64,000 bases of DNA from Nitrospinales bacterium (GTDB taxonomy: Bacteria; Nitrospinota; Nitrospinia; Nitrospinales; VA-1): assembly GCA_965262115.1 (NCBI GenBank), contig OZ253496.1, forward strand, positions 1,604,447 to 1,668,446. Direction: 5' to 3'. This document shows, piece by piece, positions 30,744 to 30,960 of this stretch. A program made the translations under genes and the position numbers. The notes under the pieces are model-generated. The model was not told the DNA's origin. It worked only from the letters and a program-made list of their open reading frames with translations, and did no database searches. Numbering within the stretch: position 1 is the first letter of the stretch; every line of letters starts with the position of its first letter.

Positions 30744-30960
30744 AATTTGGTCTCCCAGCCTTGCCGATGCGGGCTCAGTGGCCCAGGCAACTGTTCGGGT
30801 TAATCAAAATAGGACACAACAATCTGCGCTTCGGGACGGGCTTAAAAGCCCAAGGGGTAAACGATCTATTGTGCCCTGAATCAAACCCTGTGAGCCTTGT
30901 GGAAAACACAAAACCGGCTTCCCACAGGGCTCACAGGTACAACTACTACAAATTCCCCTT
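30744..30960 (-). ncRNA. Bridge RNA of the IS110 element
   Basis: 5' hairpin (30887-30937); target loop with guides TTACCCCT and CCCGAAG; donor loop with guides ACAGTTGC and CAAG; ends AAGGCTGG just before the ATG, as in IS621. Confidence 0.85.

What the first reader, a model, noticed from the sequence alone, without database searches (positions are those of the whole stretch)
30744..30960. IS110 bridge RNA is programmed against the module hairpin
Seen (minus strand): the insertion site is AGTACCC-CT-TCGGG and the circle junction is ACAGTTG-CT-TGTAT. The 230-nt left non-coding end contains TTTACCCCT (30853-30861), matching the left target plus core. After a small hairpin comes CCCGAAG (30829-30835), the exact reverse complement of core plus right target CTTCGGG. 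Both lie inside a stem spanning 30811-30877. A second loop holds ACAGTTGC (30787-30794), matching the left donor, and CAAG (30760-30763), complementary to CTTG. Knowledge: this is the IS621 bridge-RNA layout (donor ACAGTAT-CT-TGTAT), and IS621 also targets REP repeats. Inference: this is a bridge recombinase specificity aimed at what appears to be an actively mobile mini-element, so the landing pad spreads itself.
Basis: partly seen in the sequence, partly recalled or inferred. Interest (0 to 1): 0.8.

Follow-up and report, generated by a model that had tools for sequence, protein, structure and literature searches.

The report
IS110 bridge RNA aimed at repeat hairpin
This is an ordinary IS621-type (IS110-family) insertion sequence whose upstream bridge RNA carries guides matching the hairpin of a 41-nt repeat it sits in, a useful but expected example of a mechanism described in 2024.

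Summary
All motifs are at the stated coordinates on the minus strand. The 231-nt left end (30974-30744) folds into a 5' stem-loop plus two internal loops, as in the IS621 bridge RNA.

- **Target loop:** it carries TTTACCCCT (7 of 9 identical to the left flank plus core) and CCCGAAG (exact reverse complement of core plus right flank).
- **Donor loop:** it carries ACAGTTGC and CAAG, matching the element's own ends.
- **Covariation:** in ten related elements with other insertion sites, the 3' target guide follows the right flank (7/7 in eight, 6/7 in two). 14 stem pairs show compensatory changes.
- **Homology:** the loops align with the E. coli IS621 left end, and the recombinase matches the IS621 and ISCro4 structures.

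The target is the hairpin CCCC-TTC-GGGG of a 41-nt repeat with about 20 intergenic copies in the window. This particular copy lies inside an IS3 element, where it moved orfB out of the -1 frame. Two relatives from other assemblies sit in the same repeat outside IS3.

The window copy has a 10-bp deletion in its recombinase gene, so it would need the intact 316-aa copies of the same genome. IS110 elements that target REP-like hairpins through bridge RNAs are already well described. This is a new member of a known kind, of moderate-to-low interest.

The parts
29786..30974 (-). IS110-family (IS621-type) element, 1189 bp including one CT core. No terminal inverted repeats. CT(T) is shared at both junctions.
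   Evidence: Junctions read; repeat boundaries; 88% nucleotide identity to L065 and 74% to L001.
30975..30983 (-). Left target (AGTACCC) plus core CT
   Evidence: The same 9-mer lies in the uninterrupted site at 63233-63246.
29781..29787 (-). Core CT plus right target TCGGG
   Evidence: Exact reverse complement of the 3' target guide.
30744..30974 (-). Left non-coding end, the proposed bridge RNA template
   Evidence: Fold z = -3.4. 14 pairs with compensatory changes in 10 relatives. Aligns with the IS621 left end. Sub-threshold antisense match to Rfam sX15.
30887..30937 (-). 5' stem-loop of the bridge RNA
   Evidence: pairs at columns 50-58/100-108 and 67-76/88-97, several compensatory.
30812..30877 (-). 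Target-binding loop with its closing stem
   Evidence: outer stem columns 121-134/174-186, with AU to GC exchanges in 4-5 of 10 sequences.
30853..30861 (-). Left target guide TTTACCCCT (same sense as the left flank plus core; pairs with the bottom strand)
   Evidence: 7/9 match to the flank here and 8/9 in L082. The site 47717-47730 matches all nine of these positions.
30829..30835 (-). Right target guide CCCGAAG (reverse complement of CT+TCGGG)
   Evidence: 7/7 here. Covaries with the right flank in relatives: cognate 4.7/5 against non-cognate 1.1/5, permutation p = 7e-4.
30827..30828 (-). Proposed handshake guide of the target loop (CG). Its C can pair with donor position 7 (G) and not with target position 7 (C).
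   Evidence: Sequence; rule taken from PMC11208158. Inference.
30754..30799 (-). Donor-binding loop with its closing stem
   Evidence: Nearly invariant in relatives. Aligns with the IS621 donor loop.
30787..30794 (-). Left donor guide ACAGTTGC (equals the right-end terminus ACAGTTG plus C of the core)
30760..30765 (-). Right donor guide GGCAAG. CAAG pairs with CTTG of the core plus left-end terminus, followed by a possible G:T wobble. The next base, G at 30759, can pair with target position 7 (C).
   Evidence: L002, L161 and L169 have TACAAG, complementary to CTTGTA.
29949..30743 (-). Recombinase gene, N-terminal 264-codon frame (DEDD RuvC-like domain and the start of the Tnp domain including the catalytic Ser). 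It is truncated by a 10-bp deletion between 30031 and 30030.
   Evidence: Pfam PF01548 and PF02371. Deletion. Identical to P0123. Intact 316-aa versions are P0002-P0006.
29803..30003 (-). C-terminal part of the recombinase gene, now out of frame
   Evidence: matches the C-terminus of P0002.
29801..29806 (-). TTGACA in the right end. Together with TATGTT (30967-30972) it gives a -35/17 nt/-10 promoter only across the circle junction.
   Evidence: No minus-strand promoter-like site is found in the integrated state. The same feature is described for IS621.
29752..29785 (-). Right part of the 41-nt repeat unit that was split by the IS110 (the left part is 30975-30981)
   Evidence: nhmmer. The intact unit lies at 63204-63244 and 53951-53991.
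29412..31890 (+). IS3-family element (1290 bp without the IS110) that carries the 41-nt repeat between its A AAA AAG slippery site and orfB
   Evidence: OrfA of relatives is 97 aa and ends VIFSKGSQ.
63233..63246 (-). Unoccupied site identical to the occupied target, in a second IS3 copy

Best explanation
An IS621-type IS110-family insertion sequence lies on the minus strand at 29786-30974. Its 231-nt left end encodes a bridge RNA with a 5' stem-loop, a target-binding loop and a donor-binding loop.

**Proposed cycle**
1. The element excises as a circle.
2. The junction ACAGTTG-CT-TGTAT assembles a promoter, TTGACA-17 nt-TATGTT, that transcribes the bridge RNA and the recombinase gene.
3. The donor loop (ACAGTTGC ... 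CAAG) holds that junction.
4. The target loop holds the DNA site. [quoted passage not shown] 5. A recombinase tetramer cuts after the CT core through its serine (S235 in the intact copies). It exchanges the top strands and then resolves the junction.

**The target**
The programmed site is the apex of the hairpin CCCC-TTC-GGGG of a 41-nt intergenic repeat. The copy hit here had itself been inserted into an IS3 element.

**Status of this copy**
Its recombinase gene carries a 10-bp deletion, so it could move only with recombinase from the intact 316-aa copies of the same genome.

**Shown and inferred**
- Shown by sequence: complementarity, fold conservation, guide-flank covariation, and homology to IS621 RNA and protein.
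- Inferred: transcription, catalysis, and trans-mobilisation.
For: - **Motifs and junctions:** at the stated positions.
- **Fold:** two internal loops, z = -3.4.
- **Structure conservation:** 14 base pairs with compensatory changes among 10 relatives.
- **Covariation:** the 3' target guide equals the reverse complement of core plus right flank 7/7 in WIN, L161, L162, L163, L166, L168, L169 and L171, and 6/7 in L082 and L002, across six different right-flank sequences. Cognate pairs score 4.7/5 and non-cognate pairs 1.1/5.
- **Homology, RNA:** the E. coli IS621 left end, fetched here, aligns loop for loop.
- **Homology, protein:** P0002 matches ISCro4 (9t56, E 8.5e-33) and IS621 (8wt6, E 5.5e-30). 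Pfam finds DEDD_Tnp_IS110 plus Transposase_20. D11, E55, D97, D100 and S235 are in place.
- **Promoter:** a junction-only promoter, with no promoter-like site in the integrated state.
- **Same target elsewhere:** L082 and L065 lie in the same repeat outside IS3. L081 and L001 end in TACCCCT and CCCT.
- **Same genome:** three OrfA fusion proteins of the source genome cross the same junction.
- **Predicted sites:** 11 of the 15 best guide matches in the window are hairpins of this repeat.
Against: - No expression or activity data exist.
- The recombinase of this copy is truncated.
- The 5' guide matches the flank at only 7 of 9 positions.
- The other roughly 11 copies in the source genome could not be read as DNA, so their flanks are known only through three fusion proteins.
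- The donor loop is nearly invariant in the relatives, so it offers no covariation test within this set.
- In L082 and L065 the 3' guide differs from the actual flank at the loop position (one mismatch, or two wobble pairs).
Confidence: 0.88

Rival explanations
1. The effective landing pad in this genome is the IS3 element rather than the 41-nt repeat family as a whole. The guides fit only the CCCC-TTC-GGGG variant, which rides inside IS3, so the IS110 is in practice a parasite of IS3.
For: - In the window, the only sites identical to the occupied target are in IS3 copies. The site at 63233 is free, and the one at 53951 carries a G>T change.
- The other repeat copies have CCCG stems without a CT core, or TAC, TCC or TGC loops.
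- Three distinct IS3 OrfA-IS110 fusion proteins exist in the genome.
Against: - L082 and L065 sit in the same repeat with unrelated left and right context and no IS3.
- The non-IS3 site at 47717-47730 matches the guides 13/14, including the full 9-nt 5' guide.
- In P0245 the IS110 sits in a different hairpin context (GCTGCCCCGAAG).
Confidence: 0.3
2. The left end is only a 5' UTR and promoter region. Its matches to the flanks are chance or leftovers of past recombination, not guides.
For: There are no expression data. Rfam has no bridge RNA family, and nothing reaches a gathering score.
Against: - Joint chance is 5.5e-5.
- The guide position covaries with six different right flanks in relatives.
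- The stems carry compensatory changes.
- The region aligns with the experimentally characterised IS621 bridge RNA.
Confidence: 0.02
3. This copy is an inert relic. With a truncated recombinase, and a promoter that needs a circle junction, it neither moves nor makes bridge RNA, so the 'programming' is historical only.
For: - A 10-bp deletion truncates the protein at 264 aa.
- No promoter-like site is found in the integrated state.
Against: - The guides and both ends are intact.
- At least five distinct deletion-bearing sequences, and five intact ones, exist in the same genome with matching polymorphisms. This argues that deleted copies have multiplied, or exchanged sequence, recently.
- Trans-mobilisation of split substrates is reported for a related IS110 element (abstract).
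Confidence: 0.3

Closest known systems
IS621 of Escherichia coli (IS110 family, bridge recombinase; PMC11208160, PMC11208158)
   Same: - A long left end encoding a 5' stem-loop, a target loop and a donor loop.
- In each loop the 5' guide has the same sense as the DNA and the 3' guide is antisense, and both include the CT core.
- Nearly the same donor: ACAGTAT-CT-TGTAT in IS621 against ACAGTTG-CT-TGTAT here.
- A junction promoter, a REP-type palindromic target, a DEDD+Ser recombinase, and handshake logic at position 7.
   Different: - Different host phylum (Nitrospinales, from the record titles of the relatives).
- About 30% protein identity (my reading of the alignment; no identity figure was computed).
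- Different target (TACCC-CT-TCGGG, with the core at the apex of the hairpin).
- A shorter inner hairpin in the donor loop.
- The right end is only about 17 nt, and the stop codon overlaps the -35 box.
ISPpu9 / ISPpu10 of Pseudomonas putida (PMC12288879; bioRxiv 10.64898/2026.03.19.712850)
   Same: IS110-family elements inserted in repeated intergenic palindromes. For ISPpu10 a hairpin in the target DNA is reported to matter in addition to the RNA match.
   Different: - The ISPpu10 bridge RNA is reported to lack the 5' stem-loop, whereas this one has it.
- Whether the hairpin structure of the target matters here is untested.
[quoted passage not shown]
   Same: An IS110-superfamily element whose fixed target lies inside another mobile element, so the target travels with its carrier.
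   Different: In the IS1111 group the guide RNA lies in the right end (my own knowledge of the IS1111 group, not checked here). Here it lies in the left end. The target here is a repeat unit that only secondarily lies in IS3.
REP / BIME repeats of proteobacteria
   Same: - A short palindrome-bearing intergenic repeat, about 20 copies in 64 kb.
- Stem variants with compensatory changes (CCCC/GGGG, CCCG/CGGG, CCCT/AGGG).
- Mosaic arrangement with a second repeat family.
   Different: - Units lie mostly in direct tandem rather than as inverted doublets.
- No RAYT-type gene was seen next to them in a partial check.
- One unit lies inside an IS3 reading-frame junction.
Rfam RF02234 sX15 and its complement asX7 of Xanthomonas (PMC3300014)
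   Same: The model matches 30734-30890, the two guide loops, over its full length. The match is on the strand opposite to the bridge RNA (30.5 bits, E 0.0018). Both strands were detected by Northern blot in Xanthomonas, and 10 homologues exist in Stenotrophomonas.
   Different: The match is below the gathering score of 55 bits. sX15 was never annotated as a bridge RNA. That it is the antisense of one is my inference from the alignment.

Membership tests
IS110 family, IS110/IS621 subgroup (bridge recombinase) | [quoted passage not shown] | tested here: met
   E 1.2e-24 on residues 8-149. D11, E55, D97 and D100 are in place.
IS110 family, IS110/IS621 subgroup (bridge recombinase) | C-terminal Tnp domain (PF02371) with the conserved serine | tested here: inconclusive
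   In the window copy the domain is cut at profile position 50 of 87 by a 10-bp deletion, and the Ser of RDSGKF is kept. The domain is complete in P0002-P0006 of the same genome.
IS110 family, IS110/IS621 subgroup (bridge recombinase) | Sequence homology to recombinases with solved bridge-RNA complexes | tested here: met
   ISCro4 9t56 E 8.5e-33 and IS621 8wt6 E 5.5e-30, over residues 1-304.
IS110 family, IS110/IS621 subgroup (bridge recombinase) | No terminal inverted repeats; a short core (CT) shared by both junctions instead of a duplication made by staggered cuts | tested here: met
   CT(T) at both junctions, and the uninterrupted site carries a single CTT.
IS110 family, IS110/IS621 subgroup (bridge recombinase) | Long non-coding left end upstream of the gene and a very short right end (in the IS1111 subgroup the RNA lies in the right end instead) | tested here: met
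   Left end 231 nt, right end about 17 nt.
Bridge RNA (IS621 type) | A 5' stem-loop followed by two internal loops, each interrupted by a small hairpin | tested here: met
   (14 compensatory pairs); alignment with the IS621 left end.
Bridge RNA (IS621 type) | Target loop: the 5' side is identical to the left target plus core, and the 3' side is complementary to core plus right target | tested here: met
   7/9 and 7/7; chance 5.5e-5.
Bridge RNA (IS621 type) | Guides covary with insertion sites among orthologues | tested here: met
   ten elements, six different right targets, 7/7 or 6/7 each; permutation p = 7e-4.
Bridge RNA (IS621 type) | Donor loop matches the element's own joined ends | tested here: met
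   ACAGTTGC equals the right-end terminus plus C. CAAG is complementary to CTTG. There is no covariation test because donor and loop are invariant in this set.
Bridge RNA (IS621 type) | Promoter reconstituted at the circle junction | tested here: met
   TTGACA-17-TATGTT across the junction. This is a sequence-level match only.
Bridge RNA (IS621 type) | The RNA is expressed, binds the recombinase and directs recombination | not testable with these tools
   Needs RNA-seq and a recombination assay.
REP / REPIN repeats (for the 41-nt target repeat) | Short palindromic intergenic repeat in many copies | tested here: met
   About 20 copies in 64 kb, lying between ORFs.
REP / REPIN repeats (for the 41-nt target repeat) | Associated RAYT (Y1 HUH transposase) gene | tested here: inconclusive
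   Eight ORFs next to repeat clusters gave no such domain. The rest of the window and the rest of the genome were not searched.
REP / REPIN repeats (for the 41-nt target repeat) | Inverted doublets (REPINs) | tested here: not met
   Adjacent units are direct tandems (2112-2192, 50220-50300, 52868-52935, 54345-54412). Inverted arrangements occur only at kilobase distance.
IS3 family (the carrier of the target) | OrfA (HTH) and OrfB (rve) joined by a -1 frameshift at A AAA AAG; TG...CA ends | tested here: not met
   The domains, the slippery site and the TG..CA ends are present. As the element stands, orfB is in the +1 frame. Removing the 41-nt unit restores the -1 frame and the canonical OrfA end VIFSKGSQ*, as in the 97-aa relatives.

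The most novel reading that the evidence does not exclude
A three-level nesting with real dependence between the levels.
- A self-spreading 41-nt hairpin unit inserted into the frameshift window of an IS3. The module-bearing IS3 is present in at least three near-identical copies in this window, so it may have multiplied while carrying the unit, and the hairpin would then travel with it.
- An IS110 lineage keeps its 3' target guide tuned to the loop variants of that unit. Relatives carry CCCGAAG, CCCGUAG, CCCGGAG and CCUGGAG, mirroring the TTC, TAC and TCC loops seen among the repeats.
- The IS110 would therefore be a specialised hyperparasite of other mobile DNA, whose guide evolves with its target family.
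Probability: 0.25. Interest if true: 0.45.

Novelty: new member of a known kind. Interest (0 to 1): 0.3.

Why it matters
It adds a clean natural example of bridge-RNA targeting from a poorly studied phylum (Nitrospinales).

- The target, donor and handshake positions can all be read directly from the sequence.
- A set of close relatives has guides that differ at single positions.
- The nested arrangement (IS110 inside a 41-nt repeat inside IS3) dates the events. The repeat entered IS3 first, and the IS110 entered the repeat afterwards.
- It gives sequence evidence that the 41-nt unit has been mobile.

For bridge-recombinase engineering it offers a compact orthologue of 316 aa with a 231-nt RNA region. 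It does not change the understanding of the mechanism.

Tried and rejected
1. **Other copies in the source genome.** The look-up of encoding contigs found no record for P0001, P0002 or P0003. The genome is also not among the species representatives scanned. I fell back on junction-spanning proteins.
2. **Rfam at gathering thresholds.** Nothing was found in the whole window, and the IS621 left end also finds nothing. Rfam has no bridge RNA family, so its absence carries no weight.
3. **Metagenome scan with the protein.** Only two close relatives came back (L081, L082). The remaining hits were 54-61% identical and were not analysed further.
4. **Chance or target-duplication origin of the guide matches.** Rejected.
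5. **A RAYT next to the repeats.** Not found among eight neighbouring ORFs. The search was not exhaustive.
6. **Does the module-bearing IS3 still reach orfB by frameshifting?** The -1 frame hits a stop after the module, and by eye I saw no second slippery site in the sequence. This is left unexplained.
7. **Covariance model over all 170 loci.** Considered, then judged unnecessary once ten relatives gave clear covariation.

Full report
**1. What is at the coordinates**

Read on the minus strand, an element begins at 30974 (TGTATGTTGTTCAT...) and ends at 29786 (...ACACAGTTG-CT). It is 1189 bp long, counting one CT core.

- The left flank is ...CGAGTACCC-CT and the right flank is TCGGGGCATGAAG.
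- An uninterrupted copy of the site, GAGTACCCCTTCGGGGCATGAAG, lies at 63233.
- The target AGTACCC-CT-TCGGG and the circle junction ACAGTTG-CT-TGTAT are therefore deduced correctly.
- Pfam finds DEDD_Tnp_IS110 and the start of Transposase_20 in the 264-codon ORF 30743-29949.

**2. Is it a bridge RNA?**

*Fold.* The 231-nt left end folds (-85.4 kcal/mol, z = -3.4) into three parts.

- A 5' stem-loop at 30937-30887.
- A long stem at 30877-30812 enclosing an internal loop. The 5' side of that loop is CGTTTACCCCT and the 3' side is TCCCGAAGCG, separated by the small hairpin GGGC-TTTTAA-GCCC.
- A second, similar unit around ACAGTTGCC / GGGCC-ACTGA-GCCC / CATCGGCAAG.

*Structure conservation.* I collected relatives from genome and metagenome collections and aligned ten left ends. 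RNAalifold finds 46 pairs, 14 of them with compensatory double changes. These are concentrated in the 5' stem-loop and in the closing stem of the first loop.

*Guide-flank covariation.* This is the decisive test. The 7 nt at the position of CCCGAAG are the exact reverse complement of core plus right flank in eight elements.

| Element | 3' target guide | Core + right flank |
|---|---|---|
| Window | CCCGAAG | CTTCGGG |
| L161 | GGATGAG | CTCATCC |
| L162 | GATTGAG | CTCAATC |
| L163 | TAAAGAG | CTCTTTA |
| L166 | GGGTGAG | CTCACCC |
| L168 | TAAGGAG | CTCCTTA |
| L169 | GGGTGAG | CTCACCC |
| L171 | GGGTGAG | CTCACCC |

- L082 and L002 match 6 of 7.
- Cognate pairs match 4.7 of 5 positions beyond the core. 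Non-cognate pairs match 1.1 of 5 (permutation p = 7e-4).
- The 5' guide follows the left flank as well: TTTCCCCCT with AATCCCCCT, TTCTCCCCT with CACTCCCCT, and TTCCATCCT with ACCACCCT.
- In shuffled left ends, both window 7-mers occur together with frequency 5.5e-5.

*Comparison with IS621.* I fetched an IS621 copy from E. coli.

- Its target is ATCAGGC-CT-ACGTG and its donor is ACAGTAT-CT-TGTAT.
- Its left end aligns with the window sequence loop for loop. Shared blocks are CCGT-guide-TGGG..CC.G-T-guide and GAT.AACC.GAACAGT..C.TGG...CCG.AT..GCAAGG.TGG.
- The intact protein of the same genome (P0002, 316 aa) matches the solved ISCro4 and IS621 recombinases at E 8.5e-33 and 5.5e-30.
- P0002 has D11, E55, D97, D100 and S235.

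*Two further IS621 features.*

- TTGACA in the right end and TATGTT in the left end are 17 nt apart only across the circle junction. No promoter-like site is found on this strand in the integrated state.
- The base after the 3' target guide (C) can pair with donor position 7 (G) but not with target position 7 (C). The base after CAAG (G) can pair with target position 7 (C) but not with donor position 7 (G). This is the handshake rule of PMC11208158.

*Rfam.* Rfam has no bridge RNA family. The sX15 model matches the two loops at full length on the opposite strand, below threshold (30.5 bits, E 0.0018).

**3. What is the target?**

*The repeat family.* The site is the apex of the hairpin CCCC-TTC-GGGG at one end of a 41-nt unit, TACCCCTTCGGGGCATGAAGACAAATGAAGAGGACATCACA.

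- An HMM built from nine copies finds about 20 credible units in the window. All but the IS3-borne ones lie between ORFs.
- The units often lie in direct tandem and are mixed with a second 48-nt repeat.
- Their stems vary with compensating changes: CCCG..CGGG, CCCC..GGGG and CCCT..AGGG.

*The copy inside IS3.* The unit that was hit lies inside an IS3-family element. The window holds three copies: 29412-31890 (interrupted), 53042-54331 and 62863 onward.

- The unit sits 17 nt downstream of the A AAA AAG slippery site.
- As the element stands, orfB is in the +1 frame and OrfA runs on to 152 aa.
- Deleting exactly the 41 nt gives OrfA ...ILKKAAVIFSKGSQ* (97 aa) and puts orfB in the -1 frame, the canonical IS3 arrangement.
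- OrfA of relatives in other samples is 97-98 aa. The two I read end in VIFSKGSQ or VIFSKDSQ.
- The unit is therefore an insertion into IS3. That is direct evidence that it has been mobile at least once.

*Is the repeat hairpin the programmed target?*

- L082 (73% protein identity) has GCGTTACCC-CT | TCGGGGCATGAAGTCTAATGATGGAAATATTACA in a non-IS3 context.
- L065 (91%, a related Nitrospinales chromosome, 5'-truncated) has CT | TCGGGGCATGAGGGTTAATGAAGGGTCACCACA.
- The module HMM hits exactly these two flanks and nothing else among the 166 loci held at that point.
- L081 and L001 break off at TACCCCT and CCCT.
- In the source genome, three OrfA fusion proteins read into the IS110 right end at CCCCGAAG|CAACTGTG. 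These are P0247 (this copy), P0126 (a different module sequence) and P0245 (a different hairpin context).
- I scored every CT-centred 14-mer of the window against the guides. Of the 15 best, 11 are hairpins of this repeat.
- Only the IS3-borne sites are identical to the occupied one. The site at 47717 matches 13 of 14, including the full 5' guide.
- Units with CCCG stems have no CT core at the right place. Units with TAC, TCC or TGC loops have one mismatch next to the core.

**4. State of this copy**

- The gene has a 10-bp deletion between 30031 and 30030 relative to L081, L082 and L001. The deletion removes RGRR and shifts the frame.
- The product equals P0123.
- The same 2.68-Mb genome encodes five distinct deleted (264-aa) sequences and five intact (316-aa) sequences.
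- The two classes share polymorphisms pairwise: P0123 with P0002, P0122 with P0006, and P0124 with P0005. This points to exchange between copies or to recent spread of deleted copies.
- The guides and both ends of this copy are intact, so mobilisation in trans is plausible but not shown.

**5. Comparison with what is known, and verdict**

- IS110-family elements that insert in REP-type palindromes have been known since before 2024 (IS621, ISPpu9). Bridge RNA guidance was shown in 2024.
- A role for a hairpin in the target is reported for ISPpu10.
- IS110-superfamily elements that target other transposons are known (IS4321/IS5075, cited).
- This element meets every sequence-level criterion of an IS621-type bridge system, apart from the truncated Tnp domain in this copy. 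It is a new member of a known kind.

- The landing pad hit here rides in an IS3.
- Only one loop and stem variant of the repeat is a full match.
- Present-day mobility of the repeat is not shown.
- This copy is non-autonomous.

Interest is moderate to low.

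Noticed in passing
window 29752-29787 + 30975-30981; 53951-53991; 63204-63244: All three IS3 copies in the window carry one 41-nt repeat unit between the slippery site A AAA AAG and orfB. This moves orfB from the -1 to the +1 frame and extends OrfA to 152 aa. Relatives elsewhere lack the unit (97-aa OrfA). How such an IS3 reached at least three near-identical copies is unexplained.
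   Followed up: partly
window 53951-53962: In the IS3 copy on the minus strand, the embedded hairpin reads TACCCCTTCGTG. This single G>T change is the only internal difference from the other copies. It breaks both the hairpin and the match to the IS110 3' guide.
   Followed up: partly
window 30030/30031 and proteins P0001, P0121-P0124 vs P0002-P0006: The 10-bp deletion variant of the IS110 recombinase gene occurs as five distinct sequences in the source genome. These share polymorphisms pairwise with the five intact variants. This suggests gene conversion between copies, or recent spread of non-autonomous copies.
   Followed up: partly
window 29400-29412, 31890-31902, 53030-53042, 54331-54343: The IS3 copies (1290 bp, ends TGATCTTCCCCTG...CAGGGGAAGATCA) show no matching 3-4 bp target duplications at their flanks. 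This hints at recombination between copies. The copy at 53042-54331 is inserted in a composite repeat that also occurs at 50380-50427.
   Followed up: no
window 39253-39300, 50320-50367, 52808-52855, 54417-54464, 32104-32146, 24382-24475: A second repeat family of about 48 nt (ATCACTAGCTCAGCATGACAATAAAGGGCTGTTTTGTCATTCTGAGGA), with an internal inverted repeat. It lies next to the 41-nt units, giving mosaic clusters reminiscent of BIMEs.
   Followed up: no
window 61944-62035: A perfect tandem array: 3.3 copies of the 28-nt unit GTGGTTTTCATCGGCCCTGCGCCGAGCA, with a diverged copy before it at 61920. There are no spacers between the copies.
   Followed up: no
window 30734-30890 (+ strand): Rfam RF02234 (sX15, a Xanthomonas sRNA) matches the two guide loops over its full length on the strand opposite to the bridge RNA (30.5 bits, E 0.0018, below gathering). 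sX15 and its complement asX7 were both detected by Northern blot, and there are 10 homologues in Stenotrophomonas. The family probably represents the antisense of an IS110 bridge RNA.
   Followed up: partly
L169 1350-1400, L170 1450-1469 (right flanks): A more distant IS110 relative with target CCACC-CT-CACCC has, about 50 nt downstream, the motif CATGCCCGGCACGGGTA. This is the hairpin end of the 41-nt repeat family, so the family occurs in other organisms.
   Followed up: no
L082, L065, L001 target loops: Close relatives differ in the 3' target guide, mainly at the base facing the hairpin loop (CCCGAAG, CCCGTAG, CCCGGAG); L065's CCTGGAG also differs at a stem-facing base. The first three correspond to the loop variants TTC, TAC and TCC, all present among the repeat units of the window. 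The readable flanks of L082 and L065 are nevertheless TTC.
   Followed up: partly
protein P0245 (source genome, outside the window): One IS3 copy carries a CCCG-type unit followed by a second hairpin (GCTGCCCCGAAG) in which an IS110 sits. This is an independent insertion in a different local context.
   Followed up: no
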